IMG/VR virus record: IMGVR_UViG_2563366928_000007
Strand: one strand, 5' to 3'
Length of the DNA stretch: 12,483 nt
Source: a virus
Lineage: Duplodnaviria > Heunggongvirae > Uroviricota > Caudoviricetes
Program-made: the position numbers and the translations under genes
Shown here: positions 4,230 through 12,483 of the stretch, one piece after another
How the letters are laid out: the number at the start of each line of letters is the position of its first letter
Numbering within the stretch: position 1 is the first letter of the stretch
The notes under the pieces: model-generated
The model's input: the letters and a program-made list of their open reading frames with translations, nothing else
Told to the model about the DNA's origin: nothing
Database searches by the model: none

Positions 4230-7200
4230 ATGGGTAAAGGCAGCAGTAAGGGGCATACCCCGCGCGAAGCGAAGGACAACCTGAAGTCCACGCAGCTGCT
4301 GAGTGTGATCGATGCCATCAGCGAAGGGCCGGTTGAAGGTCCGGTGGATGGATTAAAAAGCGTGCTGCTGAACAGTACGCCGGTGCTGGACAGTGAGGGG
4401 AATACCAATATATCCGGCGTCACGGTGGTGTTCCGGGCCGGTGAGCAGGAGCAGACACCGCCGGAGGGATTTGAATCCTCCGGCTCCGAGACGGTGCTGG
4501 GTACGGAAGTGAAGTACGACACGCCGATTACCCGGACCATCACGTCGGCAAACATCGACCGTCTGCGCTTTACCTTCGGTGTGCAGGCACTGGTGGAAAC
4601 CACCTCAAAGGGGGACCGGAATCCGTCGGAAGTCCGCCTGCTGGTTCAGATACAGCGTAATGGTGGCTGGGTGACGGAAAAAGACATCACCATTAAAGGC
4701 AAAACCACCTCACAGTATCTAGCATCGGTGGTGGTGGGTGACCTGCCGCCGCGCCCGTTCAATATCCGGATGCGCAGGATGACGCCGGACAGCACCACAG
4801 ACCAGCTGCAGAACAAAACGCTCTGGTCGTCATACACCGAAATCATCGATGTGAAACAGTGCTACCCGAACACGGCACTGGTCGGCGTACAGGTGGATTC
4901 GGAGCAGTTCGGCAGCCAGCAGGTGAGCCGTAATTATCATCTGCGCGGGCGTATTCTGCAGGTGCCGTCGAACTATAACCCGCAGACTCGGCAATACAGC
5001 GGTATCTGGGACGGAACGTTTAAGCCAGCATACAGCAATAACATGGCCTGGTGTCTGTGGGATATGCTGACCCATCCACGCTACGGCATGGGGAAACGTC
5101 TTGGTGCGGCGGATGTGGACAAATGGGCGCTGTATGTCATCGGCCAGTACTGCGACCAGTCAGTGCCGGACGGCTTTGGCGGCACGGAGCCGCGCATCAC
5201 CTGTAATGCGTACCTGACCACACAGCGCAAGGCGTGGGATGTGCTCAGTGATTTCTGCTCGGCGATGCGCTGTATGCCGGTATGGAACGGGCAGACGCTG
5301 ACGTTCGTGCAGGACCGACCGTCGGATAAGGTGTGGACCTATAACCGCAGTAATGTGGTGATGCCGGATGATGGCGCGCCGTTCCGCTACAGCTTCAGCG
5401 CCCTGAAGGACCGCCATAATGCCGTTGAGGTGAACTGGATTGACCCGGACAACGGCTGGGAGACGGCGACAGAGCTTGTTGAAGATACGCAGGCCATTGC
5501 CCGTTACGGTCGTAATGTCACGAAGATGGATGCCTTTGGCTGTACCAGCCGGGGGCAGGCACACCGCGCCGGGCTGTGGCTGATTAAAACGGAACTGCTG
5601 GAGACGCAGACCGTGGATTTCAGCGTGGGTGCTGAAGGGCTTCGCCATGTACCGGGCGATGTCATTGAAATCTGCGATGATGACTATGCCGGTATCAGCA
5701 CCGGTGGTCGCGTGCTGGCGGTGAACAGCCAGACCCGGACGCTGACGCTCGACCGTGAAATCACGCTGCCATCCTCCGGTACCACGCTGATAAGCCTGGT
5801 TGACGGAAGTGGTAATCCGGTCAGCGTGGAGGTTCAGTCCGTCACCGACGGACTTAAGGTGAAAGTGAACCGGGTTCCTGACGGCGTTGCAGAATACAGT
5901 GTGTGGGGGCTGAAGCTGCCGACGCTGCGCCAGCGCCTGTTCCGCTGTGTGAGTATCCGTGAGAACGATGACGGCACGTATGCCATCACTGCCGTGCAGC
6001 ATGTACCGGAAAAAGAAGCCATCGTGGATAACGGGGCGCACTTTGACGGCGACCAGAGCGGCACGGTGAATGGTGTCACGCCGCCAGCGGTGCAGCACCT
6101 GACCGCCGAAGTCACCGCAGACAGCGGGGAATATCAGGTGCTGGCGCGCTGGGACACGCCGAAGGTGGTGAAGGGCGTGAGCTTCCTGCTTCGCCTGACC
6201 GTGGCAGCGGATGACGGCAGTGAGCGGCTGGTCAGCACGGCCCGGACGACGGAAACCACATACCGCTTCACGCAACTGGCGCTGGGGCGGTACACGCTGA
6301 CAGTCCGGGCGGTAAATGCGTGGGGACAGCAGGGCGATCCGGCGTCGGTATCGTTCCGGATTGCCGCACCGGTAGCACCGTCGCGGATTGAGCTGACGCC
6401 GGGGTATTTTCAGATAACCGCCACGCCGCATCTTGCCGTTTATGACCCGACGGTACAGTTTGAGTTCTGGTTCTCGGAAAAGCGGATTACCGATATCAGG
6501 CAGGTTGAAACCACAGCGCGCTACCTTGGCACGGGGCTGTACTGGATAGCCGCCAGTATCAATATCAAACCGGGCCATGATTATTATTTTTACGTTCGCA
6601 GTGTGAACACCGTTGGCAAATCGGCATTCGTGGAGGCTGTTGGTCAGCCGAGTGATGATGCATCCGGCTATCTGGATTTTTTCAAAGGCGAGATAGGGAA
6701 AACCCATCTGGCTCAGGAGCTGTGGACGCAGATTGATAACGGTCAGCTTGCGCCTGACCTGGCTGAAATCAGGACGTCCATTACGGATGTCAGCAATGAA
6801 ATCACGCAGACCGTCAATAAGAAACTGGAAGACCAGAGTGCAGCGATCCAGCAGATACAGAAGGTTCAGGTTGATACAAATAATAACCTGAACAGCATGT
6901 GGGCAGTGAAGCTGCAGCAGATGCAGGACGGACGCCTTTATATTGCGGGTATCGGTGCCGGTATTGAGAACACCCCCGACGGCATGCAGAGTCAGGTGCT
7001 GCTGGCGGCAGACAGGATTGCGATGATTAATCCTGCGAATGGCAACACAAAGCCGATGTTTGTTGGTCAGGGCGATCAGATATTCATGAATGAAGTGTTC
7101 CTGAAATATCTGACGGCTCCCACCATTACCAGCGGCGGTAATCCTCCGGCATTTTCCCTGACACCGGACGGGCGACTGACGGCGAAAAATGCCGATATCA

Positions 7201-7709
7201 GCGGTAGCGTGAATGCGAACTCCGGGACGCTCAACAACGTCACGATTAACGAGAACTGTCGGGTTCTGGGAAAACTGTCCGCGAACCAGATTGAAGGCGA
7301 TCTCGTTAAAACAGTGGGCAAAGCTTTCCCCCGGGACTCCCGTGCACCGGAGCGGTGGCCATCAGGGACCATTACCGTCAGGGTTTATGACGATCAGCCG
7401 TTTGACCGGCAAATTGTTATTCCAGCGGTGGCTTTCAGCGGTGCCAGACATGAACGGGAGAATAGCGATACTTATTCGTCATGCCGCCTGATAGTGAAGA
7501 AAAACGGGGCTGAAATTTATAACCGAACGGCTCTGGATAATACTCTGATTTACACGGGTGTTATTGATATGCCTGCAGGCAGTGGCGTAATGACACTGGA
7601 GTTTTCTGTATCAGCATGGTGGGTAAATGGCTGGTATCCCACAGCAAGTATCAGCGATTTGCTGGTTGTTGTGATGAAGAAAGCCACTGCAGGCATCACG
7701 ATTAGCTGA
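4230..7709 (+). CDS. J: Central tail fibre / host specificity protein J (tip attachment protein)
   Basis: 1159-aa ORF with GGAG Shine-Dalgarno 8 nt upstream. The N-terminus [34 protein letters not shown]… and most of the first ~1000 aa match lambda gpJ from memory. The C-terminal ~150-200 aa diverge from lambda in sequence but retain the …[23 protein letters not shown] ending. Confidence 0.95.
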
Positions 7710-7776: not shown

Positions 7777-8376
7777 ATGCGTAAATTATGTGCTGTTATT
7801 CTGTCCACAGTAGTCTGGCTGGTCGCCGCTGGTACGCCAGCGAGCGCAGCAGAGCATCAGTCCACACTAAGCGCCGGGTATCTTCAGACCCATACTGATA
7901 TGCCCGGCAACGATGACCTGAAGGGCATTAACGTGAAATACCGTTATGAATTTACGGACACGCTGGGGCTGGTGACGTCATTCAGTTATGCCAATGCCAA
8001 AGATGAGCAAAAAACGCATTACAGCGATACCCGCTGGCATGAAGATTCAGTGCGTAACCGCTGGTTCAGCATGATGGCGGGGCCGTCTGTACGCGTGAAT
8101 GAATGGTTCAGTGCTTATGCGATGGCAGGTGTGGCTTACAGCCGTGTTTCAACTTTTTCCGGGGATTATCTCCGCGTAACTGACAGCAAGGGGAAAACGC
8201 ACGATGTGCTGACTGGAAGTGATGACGGTCGCCACAGCAACACGTCTCTGGCGTGGGGGGCTGGCGTGCAGTTTAACCCGACCGAATCCGTGGCCATTGA
8301 TATTGCTTATGAAGGCTCCGGCAGTGGTGACTGGCGCACTGACGGTTTCATCGTGGGTGTCGGTTATAAATTCTGA
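7777..8376 (+). CDS. lom: Outer membrane beta-barrel protein Lom (Ail/Lom/PagC/OmpX family)
   Basis: 199-aa ORF with GAGAGG Shine-Dalgarno. N-terminal signal peptide (MRKLCAVILSTVVWLVAAGTPASAAE), alternating amphipathic beta-strand pattern, and C-terminal …GVGYKF ending in Phe as in outer-membrane barrels. Position between J and stf is as in lambda. Confidence 0.9.
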   Translation: MRKLCAVILSTVVWLVAAGTPASAAEHQSTLSAGYLQTHTDMPGNDDLKGINVKYRYEFTDTLGLVTSFSYANAKDEQKTHYSDTRWHEDSVRNRWFSMMAGPSVRVNEWFSAYAMAGVAYSRVSTFSGDYLRVTDSKGKTHDVLTGSDDGRHSNTSLAWGAGVQFNPTESVAIDIAYEGSGSGDWRTDGFIVGVGYKF

Positions 8377-8402: not shown

Positions 8403-8430
8403 AGCCCGCCGGTTCAGGCGGGCTTTTTTG
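8403..8430 (+). terminator. Rho-independent terminator downstream of lom
   Basis: AGCCCGCC (8403-8410), loop GGTTCA, GGCGGGCT (8417-8424), followed by TTTTTTG. Confidence 0.75.
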
Positions 8431-8440
8431 TGGAGTGGAT

Positions 8441-10816
8441 ATGGCAGCAGTAAAAATCTCAGGTGTGCTGAAAGATTGTGCGGGAAAACCAATACAGAAC
8501 TGCACTATTCAACTGAAGGCAAAGCGTAACAGCACCACGGTACTGGTGAACACGGTGGCCTCTGAAAATCCGGATGAAGCCGGGCGTTACAGCATGGATG
8601 TTGAGCATGGCCAGTACAGCGTCATCCTGCTGGTTGAAGGTTTTCCGCCTTCACATGCCGGGACCATTACCGTCTATGAAGGCTCCAGACCAGGTACGCT
8701 GAATGATTTTCTCGGTGCCATGACGGAAGATGATGTCATGCCGGAGGCATTGCGTCGTTTTGAGGCAATGGTGGAAGAAGTGGCACGCAACGCCGAAGCC
8801 GCCTCTCAGAGCGCAGCGGCGGCAAAGAAATCCGAAACTGCAGCGGCATCATCGAAGAACGCGGCGAAAACCTCAGAAACGAATGCAGCTAATAGTGCAC
8901 AGGCGGCAGCGACCTCAAAGACTGCATCGGCAAACTCCGCGACAGCAGCCAAAAAATCAGAAACCAACGCGAAAAACAGTGAGACAGCCGCAAAGACGAG
9001 CGAAACCAACGCAAAGTCCAGCCAGACGGCAGCGAAAACCAGCGAAACGAATGCTAAAGCCAGTGAAACTGCAGCAAAAAACAGCCAGGCTTCAGCAGCC
9101 GAAAGCGAGAGCGCGGCAGCCGGTTCTGCGACTTCAGCAGCTGGATCAGCAACTGCTGCGGCTAACAGCCAGAAAGCTGCGAAGACGAGTGAAACTAACG
9201 CAAAGTCCAGCCAGACGGCAGCGAAGACCAGCGAAACGAATGCCAAAGCCAGTGAAACTGCGGCGAAAAGCAGTCAGGATGCAGCGGCCCAAAGCGAGAG
9301 TGCCGCAGCCAGTTCTGCAAGCGCGGCGGCTGCTTCTGCCACTGCATCAGCTAACAGTCAAAAAGCAGCAAAAACCAGTGAAACCAACGCAAAGGTGAGC
9401 GAAACAGCGGCTGCGAACTCAGCGAAAGCATCGGCAGCAAGCCAGACGGCAGCTAAAGCAAGCGAAGATGCAGCCAGAGAGTACGCAAGCCAGGCTGCGG
9501 AGCCGTATAAATATGTCTTACAGCCGCTGCCTGATGTGTGGATACCATTTAACGATTCGCTGGATATGATTACGGGCTTTTCGCCATCATATAAAAAAAT
9601 TGTTATTGGTGACGATGAAATAACGATGCCTGGCGACAAGATTGTTAAGTTTAAACGTGCATCGAAAGCAACCTATATTAACAAATCTGGTGTGCTGACA
9701 GAGGCTGCCATTGACGAGCCACGATTTGAACGTGATGGCCTGCTTATTGAGGGGCAAAGAACAAACTACATGCTCAATTCGGAAAGCCCTGCCAGTTGGG
9801 GGCGATCGTCAAATATGGATGTGCCCGAAACAGGGACGGATAATTTTGGTTTTACCTATGGAAAGTTTGTCTGCAACGATTCTCTGATTGGGCAAACCTC
9901 AGCCATTAATATGGCATCAATTGCTGCAACAAAGTCAGTTGATGTCTCAGGCGATAATAAACACGTGACAACCTCATGTCGTTTTAAAACAGAACTGCAG
10001 GTAAGGTTGCGTATCCGGTTTGATAAATATGACGGTAGCGCAACAACTTTTCTTGGTGATGCGTATATTGATACACAAACGCTTGAAATTAATATGACAG
10101 GCGGTGCTGCCTCAAGGATTACAGCGAGAGTCAGAAAGGACGAAGCTACCGGATGGATTTTTGCAGAGGCAACAATTCAGGCAATTGATGGGGAGTTAAA
10201 AATAGGCTCTCAGATACAGTATTCTCCTAAGCAGAGCGGGGCAACCGTATCTGGTGACTATATTTATCTGGCCACCCCACAAGTAGAAGATGGGCCTTGT
10301 GTATCATCTTTTATTATATCAGGAGCGACGGCGGCGACCCGCGCAAGCGATATAGTTACAGTTCCAATTAAGAATAATCTTTATAATCTTCCTTTTACGG
10401 TTCTTTGTGAGGTACATAAGAACTGGTATAAAACGCCAAATGCAGCGCCACGTGTTTTTGATACCGGCGGTCATCAAACCGGAGCGGCTATTATTCTTGG
10501 CTTCGGTCGTTCAACAGATTACGACGGATTTCCTTATTGCGATATTGGAGGAGCTAACAGACGGGTAAACGAAAACGCATCGCTTGAAAAAATGGTTATG
10601 GGGATGCGTGTAAAGTCAGAGCAGTCTACGTGCTCAGTAAGTAACGGGCATATATCCAGCGAAACAAAAACCACATGGTCCTGTATTCAGAACACCGCAA
10701 TTATCCGTATTGGAGGCCAGACTACAGCCGGGTTACGTCATTTATTTGGTCATGTCAGGAATTTCAGAATATGGCACAAGGCATTGACTGATGCTCAGGT
10801 GGGGGAGTCAATCTAA
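8441..10816 (+). CDS. stf: Side tail fibre protein Stf, mosaic: lambda-like N-terminal domain, repeat shaft, divergent C-terminal receptor-binding region with LamG-like terminal motif
   Basis: Long ORF (track start GTG 8435; ATG 8441 is preferred, with GGAG 5 nt upstream, giving MAAVKISGVLKD… like lambda Stf MAVKISGVLKDGTGKPVQNCTIQLKA…). An S/A/T/K/E/N-rich repeat region follows. The C-terminal ~430 aa are unrelated to lambda Stf and end …GLRHLFGHVRNFRIWHKALTDAQVGESI. Confidence 0.9.
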   Translation: MAAVKISGVLKDCAGKPIQNCTIQLKAKRNSTTVLVNTVASENPDEAGRYSMDVEHGQYSVILLVEGFPPSHAGTITVYEGSRPGTLNDFLGAMTEDDVMPEALRRFEAMVEEVARNAEAASQSAAAAKKSETAAASSKNAAKTSETNAANSAQAAATSKTASANSATAAKKSETNAKNSETAAKTSETNAKSSQTAAKTSETNAKASETAAKNSQASAAESESAAAGSATSAAGSATAAANSQKAAKTSETNAKSSQTAAKTSETNAKASETAAKSSQDAAAQSESAAASSASAAAASATASANSQKAAKTSETNAKVSETAAANSAKASAASQTAAKASEDAAREYASQAAEPYKYVLQPLPDVWIPFNDSLDMITGFSPSYKKIVIGDDEITMPGDKIVKFKRASKATYINKSGVLTEAAIDEPRFERDGLLIEGQRTNYMLNSESPASWGRSSNMDVPETGTDNFGFTYGKFVCNDSLIGQTSAINMASIAATKSVDVSGDNKHVTTSCRFKTELQVRLRIRFDKYDGSATTFLGDAYIDTQTLEINMTGGAASRITARVRKDEATGWIFAEATIQAIDGELKIGSQIQYSPKQSGATVSGDYIYLATPQVEDGPCVSSFIISGATAATRASDIVTVPIKNNLYNLPFTVLCEVHKNWYKTPNAAPRVFDTGGHQTGAAIILGFGRSTDYDGFPYCDIGGANRRVNENASLEKMVMGMRVKSEQSTCSVSNGHISSETKTTWSCIQNTAIIRIGGQTTAGLRHLFGHVRNFRIWHKALTDAQVGESI
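8815..9480 (+). repeat. Low-complexity coding repeat region inside stf, including a ~189-bp (63-aa) tandem direct duplication (copies starting near 9011 and 9200, third partial copy after ~9389)
   Basis: The motif gcaaagtccagccagacggcagcgaa… occurs at ~9011 and again at ~9200, with collinear similarity over ~190 bp. The protein shows reiterated AAKTSETNAK(S/A)S(Q/E)TAAK units. Confidence 0.8.
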
Positions 10817-11097
10817 TGAAAGATTTAACACTCAAATTTGCCGACAGGGCCGACTTTTCGGCCTTTATGGAGAGTATTGGCTATTATGATGACGAGTCGA
10901 TGCAGGATGATATTCTTATTGACGTGATAGGTAACGTGTACAAAGAAACCGGAGAACTGACTGAAGATGGCGAACCGGTATGTGTTAAGGAAGACGGATA
11001 TTTTGTAAACGTGCGCATCATTAATGATTCGCAAATATCGTCATTATTCGATGAATACGTGGTTGCTGTTGAGCATCAACTTCGTGGCTGGATGTGA
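10816..11097 (+). CDS. Hypothetical small acidic protein (93 aa), translationally coupled to stf
   Basis: ATG overlaps the stf stop (TAATG). Codon usage is coherent with neighbouring genes. Strongly acidic (many D/E). No family recognised by eye. Confidence 0.6.
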   Translation: MKDLTLKFADRADFSAFMESIGYYDDESMQDDILIDVIGNVYKETGELTEDGEPVCVKEDGYFVNVRIINDSQISSLFDEYVVAVEHQLRGWM

Positions 11098-11106
11098 GGA
11101 AGAAAA

Positions 11107-12147
11107 ATGGCTACATCGACAGTAATTCCTGATGACATCAAAACGCTAAAATCCGACGTTAGCAAATTAAAAAACGATCAAGGAAGCTACGCAACAAAAT
11201 TATATGTAGACAGCAAAGATGAAATCGTTGGTGACTGGTCTGCTTCATGGTATCAGCAGGTATTGCCAACTAGCGGAGCTATATTTGGGAGAAAACTCCG
11301 CTCAACTCACAGGACGGCAGGTGTTGAGGATGCGTATTGCGAACTATACCTCAAAAAATGGATAGACAGTCCAGGTAACGCAATGGCGCGCCTTAACCTG
11401 AACGATAACGGGACAAACATTTGCTGGGACTTTACCAACCTTTATGGCGGTACGATGATTTTTCCCGGTGACAGCGGATACCTCAAAATGGGTAACTGCC
11501 TTATGTCATACAGCAAGCGTGGAAGTAACGCGCTTATTAAATTTGATTACACCGACACATTACAGATCAAATATGCCAATCATGGGTCAACCATGACATT
11601 AAACACACAGGGAACCGCTTATGCTGGTGTTACTGCTCAATTGTGGGGCAACTCCAGCCGTCCTGTTGTTTATGAAGTCGGTGTTGATGGTGGCGCTTAT
11701 ATGTTCTATGCGCAGAAAAATACCGATAACACCTATATGTTAAGCGTTAATGGTGCATGTCATGCCACCGCATTTAACCAGCATTCCGACCGGGATCTGA
11801 AAGACAACATTCAGGTGATCGATAATGCAACCGACCGCATCCGTAAAATGAACGGCTATACATACACGCTTAAAGAAAACGGTATGCCCTATGCTGGTGT
11901 CATTGCACAGGAAGCTCTGGAAGCAATCCCAGAAGCTGTAGGTTCCGCAATGAAATATCAGGACGGTGCAAGCGGATCGGAAGGTGAAGAAGGTGAACGT
12001 TATTACACAGTAGATTATTCTGGTGTTACTGGCTTGCTTGTTCAGGTAGCCAGAGAGTCAGACGACAGAATAACAGCACTGGAAGAAGAAAATGCAGAAT
12101 TAAAACAAAGATTATCTGCAATTGAGGCGACGCTTGCGTCTAAATAA
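11107..12147 (+). CDS. Tail fibre/spike-like protein with C-terminal intramolecular chaperone autocleavage domain (peptidase S74 / endosialidase-chaperone type)
   Basis: 346-aa ORF with strong GAGGAAG Shine-Dalgarno. The C-terminal ~120 aa carry the S74-type signature: HSDRDLKDNIQ (Ser-x4-Lys autocleavage motif), …YAGVIAQEALEAIPEAVG…, …YYTVDYSGVTGLLVQVARE…, and a terminal coiled coil ITALEEENAELKQRLSAIEATL. The N-terminal ~225 aa are beta-rich and fibre-like. Confidence 0.85.
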   Translation: MATSTVIPDDIKTLKSDVSKLKNDQGSYATKLYVDSKDEIVGDWSASWYQQVLPTSGAIFGRKLRSTHRTAGVEDAYCELYLKKWIDSPGNAMARLNLNDNGTNICWDFTNLYGGTMIFPGDSGYLKMGNCLMSYSKRGSNALIKFDYTDTLQIKYANHGSTMTLNTQGTAYAGVTAQLWGNSSRPVVYEVGVDGGAYMFYAQKNTDNTYMLSVNGACHATAFNQHSDRDLKDNIQVIDNATDRIRKMNGYTYTLKENGMPYAGVIAQEALEAIPEAVGSAMKYQDGASGSEGEEGERYYTVDYSGVTGLLVQVARESDDRITALEEENAELKQRLSAIEATLASK

Positions 12148-12153
12148 TATTAA

Positions 12154-12176
12154 GGGGCCGAGCGCCCCGTTTTATT
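12154..12176 (+). terminator. Possible weak intrinsic terminator or hairpin after the S74 fibre gene
   Basis: GGGGC (12154-12158), loop CGAGC, GCCCC (12164-12168), followed by GTTTTATT. The stem is short and the U-tract imperfect. Confidence 0.35.
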
Positions 12177-12183
12177 GGGTAGG

Positions 12184-12483
12184 ATGAAAATGGATATAAC
12201 ACCTTTCCTTCATGCACTTTGTGCTGTGGCTGCGCAGGTACTGGTTGGTCTTTTTACCGGAAACTGGGCTTACGGGGCGATAGCCGGTTGTACGTTCTTC
12301 ATTGCTCGTGAACATACCCAGGCAGAATATCGCTGGATTGAAATGTTCGGGCATGGCAAGCGTATGAATATGCCGTGGTGGGGTGGTTTTGATCCGCGAG
12401 TGTGGGATGTGGCAAGCCTGATGGATTTTTCTGTGCCGGTGGTGGCTTGTCTGCTGGTCTGGCTGTTGGTTAATCGTGGGTGA
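12184..12483 (+). CDS. Small predicted inner-membrane protein (~97-99 aa, two hydrophobic segments), function unknown; moron candidate
   Basis: ORF complete within the window (TGA 12481-12483). Track start is TTG 12175; more likely starts are ATG 12184 or ATG 12190 (AGGA 5 nt upstream of 12190). Hydrophobic stretches LHALCAVAAQVLVGLFTGNWAYGAIAGCTFFIA and VASLMDFSVPVVACLLVWLLV flank a charged loop. Confidence 0.6.
   Translation: MKMDITPFLHALCAVAAQVLVGLFTGNWAYGAIAGCTFFIAREHTQAEYRWIEMFGHGKRMNMPWWGGFDPRVWDVASLMDFSVPVVACLLVWLLVNRG

What the first reader, a model, noticed from the sequence alone, without database searches (positions are those of the whole stretch)
10816..11097. Strongly acidic 93-aa protein translationally coupled to stf
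Its start overlaps the stf stop (TAATG), implying co-expression with the fibre. Its size and acidity do not fit the lambda Tfa or T4 gp38 chaperone families. It could be a novel fibre chaperone or adaptor, the N-terminal module of the downstream fibre (see the TGA finding), or an unrelated small acidic effector.
Basis: inference. Interest (0 to 1): 0.45.

Follow-up and report, generated by a model that had tools for sequence, protein, structure and literature searches.

The report
Small acidic partner of lectin-headed fibre
The 93-residue acidic protein is a real gene of unknown function that phages of many kinds almost always encode directly after a tail fibre ending in a sugar-binding "lectin-like" head, so it is most likely a helper of that head, not part of the next fibre.

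Summary
ORF 10816-11097 encodes 93 aa (pI 4.05, net charge -14), and its ATG overlaps the stf stop (TAATG).

It is identical to E. coli WP_000654155.1 and belongs to PHROG 1361 (unknown function). It has no Pfam, NCBIfam, PADLOC or PDB relative. AlphaFold2 gives a confident small alpha/beta fold (pLDDT 88) with no informative structural neighbour.

The new result is its genetic partner. In 95 homologue-bearing loci from sipho-, myo- and podovirus contexts, all but two (L040, L049) carry an upstream gene ending in a LamG-like fibre end: 81 by HMM, directly upstream. Here that head matches GTA_spike_fiber. The downstream gene falls into 44 unrelated clusters.

Phage 21 and EmilHeitz carry the small gene with no second fibre. 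In rV5-like phages, "lectin head plus small gene" replaces an S74 self-chaperoning fibre end between the same flanking genes.

Stop codon and downstream frame vary, and no fusion was found in about 170 loci, so the read-through idea fails.

Best reading: a head-specific accessory, probably an assembly chaperone sitting where lambda has tfa. Binding was not tested, and 18 of 73 heads lack an adjacent homologue.

The parts
8403..8424 (+). Terminator-like hairpin with a T-run between lom and stf. It marks the upstream edge of the stf-orf93-fibre block.
   Evidence: 8-bp stem, 7 GC pairs, TTTTTTG tail
8435..10816 (+). stf, side tail fibre (793 aa from GTG). It has a lambda-type N-terminus (PF08400, aa 5-134), a repetitive Ala/Ser/Thr/Lys-rich shaft (tandem repeats 8941-9394) and a C-terminal head.
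9512..10813 (+). C-terminal head of Stf, 434 aa. NCBIfam GTA_spike_fiber domain at head aa 78-278. The end resembles Laminin_G_3 (...LFGHVRNFRIWHKALTDAQVGESI). This is the conserved genetic partner of orf93. GC falls to 0.44 from about 9500 onward, consistent with a mobile cassette.
   Evidence: AF2 is confident only for head aa ~95-260.
10801..10807 (+). Shine-Dalgarno-like GGGGGAG for orf93, inside the end of stf, 8 nt before the ATG.
   Evidence: read directly from the sequence
10816..11097 (+). orf93, the finding: a 93-aa acidic alpha/beta protein of PHROG 1361, identical to WP_000654155.1. Conserved motifs are D-V-I-G (aa 36-39), G-Y-F-V-N-V-R (aa 61-67) and the extreme C-terminal L-R-G-W-M (family consensus P-x-R-V-W-A).
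11096..11102 (+). Shine-Dalgarno-like GAGGAAG for the 346-aa fibre gene. It overlaps the orf93 TGA stop (11095-11097).
   Evidence: read directly from the sequence
11107..12147 (+). Distal or second fibre, 346 aa. Residues 1-15 (MATSTVIPDDIKTLK) are conserved among fibres that follow the small ORF. Peptidase_S74 intramolecular chaperone at aa 227-278 (nt 11785-11940).
12154..12168 (+). Terminator-like GC hairpin followed by GTTTTATT. It closes the stf-orf93-fibre block.

Best explanation
orf93 is the dedicated trans-acting accessory of the lectin-like receptor-binding head at the C-terminus of Stf. That head is a GTA head-spike-fibre domain with a LamG-like end.

Proposed mechanism. orf93 is made from the same late transcript by translational coupling, so it appears next to the newly made head in matched amounts. 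The small acidic alpha/beta protein binds the conserved C-terminal end of the head through its own conserved surface and C-terminal R-x-W tail. It then either assists folding or assembly of a head that has no built-in chaperone (the role Tfa plays for lambda Stf), or it stays on the head as a small accessory subunit. In enterobacterial branched fibres the distal S74 fibre docks nearby through its conserved N-terminal peptide.

Shown here: the gene is real and under purifying selection. It is linked to the head in sipho-, myo- and podovirus contexts. It is swapped together with the head in place of an S74 end. It stays a separate polypeptide. It does not depend on a second fibre.

Inferred, not shown: physical binding, chaperone activity, and whether the protein is in the virion.
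For: (1) Linkage, starting from the small gene. Of 95 homologue-bearing loci with at least 600 nt upstream, 81 have an ORF matching a 'LamG-end' HMM that stops -4 to +62 nt from the small ORF start. Across all loci, 37 show a 1- or 4-nt stop/start overlap. Six more have the head about 590-680 nt upstream, with one inserted gene. Six have a variant end. Only 2 are exceptions. The HMM hits 92 of 10,236 ORFs in these loci, 86 of them directly upstream.

(2) Linkage, starting from the head. In loci chosen by the head alone, 55 of 73 have the small homologue immediately downstream.

(3) The upstream N-termini differ: lambda phage_tail_N, P2 Phage_tail_fib, or none. All share GTA_spike_fiber and/or a LamG-like C-terminus.

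(4) Downstream genes fall into 44 unrelated clusters, including S74 fibres, Mu GpP baseplate protein, T7-type terminase and small membrane proteins.

(5) Natural swap in rV5-like phages. rV5 gp41 and AlexBoehm gp26 end in an S74 intramolecular chaperone and have no small ORF. EmilHeitz gp26 ends in the lectin head and is followed, with overlapping stop/start, by a 110-aa homologue. The flanking genes are the same. RBPseg reports a lectin-like head D69 in RBP_10, the EmilHeitz fibre in its cryo-EM figure, where the related RBP_11 has an S74 end (PMC12143355); equating RBP_10 with gp26 is my inference from the shared lectin end.

(6) Phage 21 has stf, then the small ORF, then a membrane protein, with no second fibre. 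The small gene sits where lambda has tfa.

(7) Coupling signals and bracketing terminators are present.

(8) No head/small fusion occurs in about 170 loci, although a single frameshift would create one.

(9) Pairwise divergence of the small protein tracks that of the head (Spearman 0.70).
Against: No interaction was tested.

18 of 73 head-bearing loci have no detectable adjacent homologue. Some of these are tandem head genes or are followed by tailspikes. The protein is therefore not universally required, or it is encoded elsewhere.

The RcGTA head fibre Rcc01080 acts as a single subunit and is reported to lie directly upstream of capsule genes (PMC7296036, PMC5026251). That weakens a 'trimerisation chaperone' argument.

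The mirror-tree correlation is confounded by co-inheritance.
Confidence: 0.55

Rival explanations
1. Branch adaptor. orf93 sits on the Stf head and provides, or completes, the docking site for the N-terminal peptide of the distal S74 fibre, building a branched LtfA/LtfB-type side fibre.
For: Residues 1-26 of the distal fibre of IrisVonRoten (M.T.T.IP.DIT.LK...) gave full-length hits only in T5-like phages; of the 22 listed full-length hits besides IrisVonRoten itself, five (T5_ev219, JLBYU40, mar004NP2, L6jm, ECO111 5-P) also appear among the listed small-ORF records and the rest were not checked. Residues 27-80 are widespread, including inside DT57C LtfA.

The block made of the last ~80 nt of stf, orf93 and the first 44 nt of the distal fibre gene (window 10736-11150) is shared at 92% identity with phages whose flanks differ (hits H13-H14; 84.5% over 10709-11150 in H15).

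A 9-nt spacer is conserved in lambdoid, Nonagvirus and T5-like versions.

BASEL-2025 models Gp24 attached to proximal fibre Gp22 in IrisVonRoten and does not discuss Gp23, the homologue of orf93 (PMC11990801).
Against: Phage 21, EmilHeitz and most metagenomic loci carry the small gene with no following fibre. This can therefore be at most an added role in enterobacterial phages. The BASEL model, as described, docks Gp24 on Gp22 without Gp23.
Confidence: 0.2
2. Masking cap. The strongly acidic protein mimics an anionic polysaccharide and occupies the glycan-binding site of the lectin head, keeping new fibres from sticking to host glycans or debris until it is released.
For: Acidity is conserved across the family: median net charge -10, range -21 to -3. 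The head type binds polysaccharide in RcGTA (PMC7296036). The protein is always a separate polypeptide.
Against: Purely inferential, with no structural or sequence precedent found. Acidity is common in small phage proteins.
Confidence: 0.08
3. Unrelated moron or effector, for example a DNA-mimic anti-restriction protein, that merely rides in the fibre cassette.
For: It is small and acidic, has no annotated function, and lies in a low-GC mobile cassette.
Against: It has a fixed position between two late structural genes, inside one terminator-bounded block, with an overlapping stop/start. Its linkage to one domain type holds across three phage morphotypes. There are no PADLOC hits.
Confidence: 0.07
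4. N-terminal module of the 346-aa fibre, produced by TGA read-through. The two ORFs are in the same frame, 9 nt apart.
For: In this window the frames coincide, and the stop is the leaky codon TGA.
Against: Homologues use TAA or TAG. The gap is 2 nt (out of frame) in KarlJaspers and VogelGryff, and other loci overlap by -10 or -13 nt. Many downstream genes are not fibres. The distal gene has its own SD and a conserved Met-start peptide. No long fusion protein appears among the homologues.
Confidence: 0.02

Closest known systems
Lambda Tfa / Mu U / P2 G tail fibre assembly proteins (Pfam Caudo_TAP)
   Same: The gene lies immediately after the side-fibre gene in the late operon and is coupled to it. 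In phage 21 and this prophage it occupies the position tfa has in lambda. It is a separate small polypeptide, expected to act on the fibre's C-terminal receptor-binding part.
   Different: No sequence relation (no Pfam hit, and both PHROG hits are to families of unknown function). It is half the size. The predicted fold is beta-alpha-alpha-beta4-alpha, with no match to solved chaperones. Its partner is a lectin-like head that is probably monomeric, not a trimeric beta-helical tip.
Peptidase_S74 intramolecular chaperone (endosialidase, T5 pb1, DT57C LtfA/LtfB)
   Same: It is an alternative solution at the same place. In rV5-like phages the fibre ends either in an S74 domain, or in the lectin head followed by the small gene.
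   Different: S74 is fused to the fibre and cleaves itself off. orf93 is never fused and has no S74 signature. In this window S74 belongs to the downstream 346-aa fibre.
RcGTA head spike (Rcc01079 base plus Rcc01080 fibre)
   Same: The Stf head matches the NCBIfam GTA_spike_fiber domain modelled on the Rcc01080 type. That is a polysaccharide-binding module paired with a small partner protein.
Gp23 of Tequintavirus IrisVonRoten and gp23 of phage 21 (homologues annotated as hypothetical protein; the IrisVonRoten RefSeq record calls Gp23 'tail fiber protein')
   Same: Direct homologues (39% and 54% identity) in the same position after a lectin-headed proximal fibre.
   Different: None has been characterised. 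BASEL-2025 describes Gp22 (with a galectin-like C-terminal domain) and Gp24 (T-shaped distal fibre) but not the function of Gp23.

Membership tests
PHROG 1361 (unknown function) | Full-length match to the family profile | tested here: met
   E=2.4e-46, residues 1-93 against profile 1-92 of 92. The rV5-like branch corresponds to phrog_18574 (E=1.8e-8).
Small acidic partner family as defined here | Conserved motifs D-x-I-G, G-[YW]-[FH]-V-N-[VL]-R and C-terminal P-x-R-x-W-[AGM]; 75-140 aa; acidic | tested here: met
   Alignments A2 and A3 and the 66-sequence conservation profile. In this window: DVIG, GYFVNVR, LRGWM, pI 4.05.
Small acidic partner family as defined here | Encoded directly downstream of a gene ending in the GTA_spike_fiber / LamG-like head | tested here: met
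   The Stf end is ...FGHVRNFRIWHKALTDAQVGESI, with a 1-nt stop/start overlap.
Tail fibre assembly protein Tfa (Caudo_TAP) | Sequence match to the Tfa family model | tested here: not met
   No Pfam hit at E<=1. No NCBIfam hit. The only PHROG hits are the two unknown-function families.
Tail fibre assembly protein Tfa (Caudo_TAP) | Binds the fibre tip and is needed for fibre assembly | not testable with these tools
This needs co-expression/pull-down or AF-Multimer.
T4 gp38 adhesin/chaperone | Sequence match; glycine-rich receptor-binding segments | tested here: not met
   No hits. No Gly-rich segments in the sequence.
Peptidase_S74 intramolecular chaperone | PF13884 domain with the conserved Ser-Lys cleavage motif | tested here: not met
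   orf93 has no hit. The downstream 346-aa protein does: 53.7 bits, aa 227-278.
GTA_spike_fiber domain (NF048003), applied to the Stf head and not to orf93 | Score above the curated cut-off of 36 bits | tested here: met
   52.3 bits, head aa 78-278. PGAP names the same protein 'phage head spike fiber domain-containing protein'.
Laminin_G_3 (PF13385), applied to the Stf C-terminal end | Score above the gathering threshold of 27.6 bits | tested here: inconclusive
   17.2 bits, E=0.006 in this window. The related head in L025 reaches 32.2 bits. The AF2 model is unreliable for this region. The literature calls the homologous domain galectin-like or lectin-like.
RcGTA head-spike base protein Rcc01079 | Jelly-roll fold; pentamer binding the fibre N-terminus | tested here: not met

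The most novel reading that the evidence does not exclude
The family is a new class of fibre-head partner with no relation to Tfa, gp38, gp57A or S74. It would work as a polyanionic 'safety cap' that mimics the polysaccharide receptor and masks the lectin site of the head until the virion is released. It may also double as the docking hub for a second fibre in branched enterobacterial side fibres.
Probability: 0.08. Interest if true: 0.75.

Novelty: new variant of a known kind. Interest (0 to 1): 0.45.

Why it matters
Fibres with this lectin-like head occur in lambdoid prophages, T1-like phages, Dhillonvirus, Queuovirinae, T5-like and rV5-like coliphages, and in many environmental phages. They are candidates for O-antigen or capsule recognition.

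If the small gene is needed to fold or complete that head, host-range engineering by head swapping must move "head plus small gene" as one unit, which is how nature appears to do it. The gene would then define a widespread new family of fibre accessory proteins.

It also corrects a likely misreading. Neither the 346-aa fibre nor a read-through product explains this ORF. In BASEL phage records the label "putative lateral tail fiber chaperone" belongs to the downstream S74 protein, not to this gene.

Tried and rejected
1. Sequence annotation of orf93. Pfam, NCBIfam, PADLOC, PDB phmmer and a PDB profile search gave nothing meaningful.

3. Complex prediction.

4. Stf head alone. AF2 with 25 close homologues gave mean pLDDT 49. 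Only the central domain (aa ~95-260) is confident, so no fold search was run on it.

5. Searches that failed outright. Three single-seed scans of viral contigs found nothing. Two alignment-based scans failed for lack of a conserved stretch.

6. A wasted search. The second homologue search listed only close E. coli clusters.

7. Literature. Searches covered LtfA/LtfB, BASEL, LamG plus chaperone, virion mass spectrometry, the WP accession and galectin-like plus small protein. No characterisation of this family was found. PMC12309495 concerns small proteins after gpJ, not after Stf.

8. Read-through fusion: rejected on comparative grounds.

9. Variable patch. Residues 72-77 occur as discrete alleles (SQISSL, VKTPSI, AKKSSI). 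ESCO3 shares the head and distal fibre with this window but carries another allele, so the patch does not track either neighbour. This was not pursued.

10. Inter-protein covariation (DCA or mutual information) was considered and dropped. There are too few independent pairs, and shared ancestry would confound it.
Full report
**What is in the window.** The window is the tail-tip and fibre end of a lambda-like E. coli prophage. It carries J (4230-7709), lom (7777-8376), stf (8435-10816), the 93-aa ORF (10816-11097), a 346-aa fibre (11107-12147) and a small membrane protein (from 12175). It is 99.9% identical to prophages in E. coli chromosomes and about 99% identical to phages Tritos, 2G7b, HannyBb and PhiR63_1. 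The cassette made of the stf 3' part, the small ORF and the second fibre also occurs at 94% identity in the virulent Nonagvirus ESCO3. GC drops from about 0.55 to 0.44 at about position 9500. This fits a horizontally mobile receptor-binding module.

**The observation.** It is correct in every detail.
- ATG 10816 overlaps the stf stop (TAATG), and GGGGGAG lies 8 nt upstream.
- The ORF encodes 93 aa, with pI 4.05 and net charge -14.
- The TGA stop overlaps the SD (GAGGAAG) of the next gene.
- Terminator-like hairpins at 8403-8424 and 12154-12168 bracket stf, orf93 and the fibre gene as one block.

The gene is real.
- It is identical to WP_000654155.1.
- It matches PHROG 1361 over its full length.
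- It has hundreds of homologous clusters.
- dN/dS is 0.12-0.27 between diverged copies.
- AlphaFold2 predicts a compact beta-alpha-alpha-beta4-alpha domain with pLDDT 88. The last ~12 residues are less confident.

**The key result: its conserved partner is upstream.** Distant homologues share D-x-I-G, G-[YW]-[FH]-V-N-[VL]-R and a C-terminal P-x-R-V-W-A. I collected 108 loci carrying a homologue.

- Upstream gene. Of 95 loci with enough upstream sequence, 81 have an ORF whose C-terminus matches one HMM and stops -4 to +62 nt from the small ORF. The typical end is NGHIR[KR]IAYYPxRLTNAQLQALT; here it is FGHVRNFRIWHKALTDAQ. Six more have this ORF one inserted gene further up, six have a variant end, and two are exceptions. 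The HMM hits almost nothing else in these loci.
- Upstream architecture. N-termini differ (lambda Stf type, P2 collar-fibre type, none). All share the NCBIfam GTA_spike_fiber domain and/or a Laminin_G_3-like end.
- Downstream gene. These fall into 44 unrelated clusters, including S74 fibres, Mu GpP baseplate protein, a gp53-like fibre, T7-type terminase and small membrane proteins.
- Converse test. In loci chosen by the head alone, 55 of 73 carry the small homologue right after it. The other 18 include tandem head genes and heads followed by tailspikes.

**Named-phage examples.**
- Phage 21 has stf, the small ORF and a membrane protein, with no second fibre.
- In Vequintavirus, rV5 gp41 and AlexBoehm gp26 end in an S74 intramolecular chaperone and lack the small gene.
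- EmilHeitz gp26 ends in the lectin head and is followed, with overlapping stop/start, by a 110-aa homologue, between the same neighbours.
- RBPseg reports a lectin-like head (D69) in RBP_10, the EmilHeitz fibre shown in its cryo-EM figure, where RBP_11 has S74 (PMC12143355); that RBP_10 is gp26 is my inference.
- BASEL-2025 describes the homologous IrisVonRoten proximal fibre Gp22 as ending in a protruding galectin-like domain, with T-shaped Gp24 attached to it. Gp23, the homologue of orf93, is not discussed (PMC11990801).
- In RcGTA the related head fibre Rcc01080 is a single subunit that binds capsule polysaccharide (PMC7296036).

**Read-through and fusion.** In this window the two ORFs are in frame, 9 nt apart, with a TGA stop. 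Homologues use TAA or TAG. Gaps of 2 nt and overlaps of 10-13 nt put the next gene in other frames, and often the next gene is not a fibre. No ORF in about 170 loci combines the head end with the small domain. The small protein is kept as a separate polypeptide.

**Mechanism.** The best-supported reading is a head-specific accessory. It would be made by coupled translation beside the emerging head, and would bind the head's conserved C-terminal end. It would then either chaperone a head that lacks a built-in chaperone or remain as a small subunit.

I put 0.55 on 'acts on or binds the head', with chaperone the more likely form. The reasons for favouring chaperone are the tfa-equivalent position, the exchange with an S74 end, and the fact that it is never fused.

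A branch-adaptor role for the distal fibre is possible as an enterobacterial add-on (0.2). The distal fibre's first ~26 residues are found only in fibres that, where checked, follow the small ORF. The block 10736-11150 also travels as a unit.

The weaknesses are these.
- No binding test was possible.
- A quarter of heads lack an adjacent homologue.
- The GTA fibre seems to manage without one.
- The co-divergence figure (r=0.70) is confounded by co-inheritance.

**Novelty and score.** The gene itself is already in the databases as a hypothetical protein. What is new is the family-level link to the lectin-like head, its exchange as a unit with that head, and the exclusion of the read-through and second-fibre explanations. 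I rate it a new variant of a known kind (a fibre accessory or chaperone gene of an unrelated family), with interest 0.45.

Noticed in passing
window 12175-12483 (PGAP start 12190): A ~97-102-aa predicted membrane protein (PHROG 1443, unknown function) closes the fibre module. It follows the small ORF directly in phage 21, where it is annotated as having 2 TMDs. It could be a lysogenic-conversion or exclusion gene. No Pfam, NCBIfam or PADLOC hit.
   Followed up: partly
window 8403-8424: A strong terminator-like hairpin (8-bp stem, 7 GC pairs, T-run) lies between lom and the stf GTG start at 8435. Expression of stf therefore presumably needs late antitermination or read-through.
   Followed up: no
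window 8941-9394: The Stf shaft holds nested tandem repeats: period 42, 3.5 copies; period 189, 2.2 copies at 82% identity. They encode the (A/S)KTSETNAK-type repeat. Variation in repeat number probably changes shaft length, and related proteins range from 662 to 793 aa.
   Followed up: partly
L207:1642-4017 (E. coli MS 196-1, 99.9% identical to the window): PGAP splits the continuous stf ORF into a 'partial' N-terminal pseudogene and a separate 'phage head spike fiber domain-containing protein' that starts internally. In the window the frame is open from 8435 to 10816, so this looks like an annotation artefact.
   Followed up: partly
window 11029-11046 (orf93 aa 72-77): This is a short hypervariable patch with discrete alleles among E. 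coli copies (SQISSL, VKTPSI, AKKSSI, MKTPSI). All differences between the window and ESCO3 in orf93 are non-synonymous (pN 0.036, pS 0). That suggests a recombined or positively selected contact patch at the start of the last helix.
   Followed up: partly
L080-L083, L045, L052 (IMG/VR loci): A gene of about 200 aa is inserted between the head gene and the small ORF; one copy ends ...EIAQEYGVASSLASLIRTRQIW.... It may be a homing-endonuclease-like or HTH insertion splitting an otherwise tight pair.
   Followed up: no
L130, L140, L167, L168, L178, L196: Two head-domain genes lie in tandem. The first of the pair lacks its own small partner gene.
   Followed up: no
L156:4320-4646: A head gene here is followed by a 108-aa ORF that is equally acidic (pI 4.05) but is not detected by the family HMMs. 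It may be a very divergent member or an analogue.
   Followed up: no
window 5160-6707 (- strand): A 515-aa antisense ORF lies inside gene J. It is most likely a by-product of the GC-rich codon usage of J (GC 0.57), not a gene.
   Followed up: no
L115-L120 (Cupriavidus / Burkholderiaceae genomes): GC-rich members of the small-protein family sit in Cupriavidus chromosomes. tblastn also finds members in cyanophage S-WAM2 and Aeromonas phages. The family therefore reaches well beyond enterobacterial phages.
   Followed up: partly
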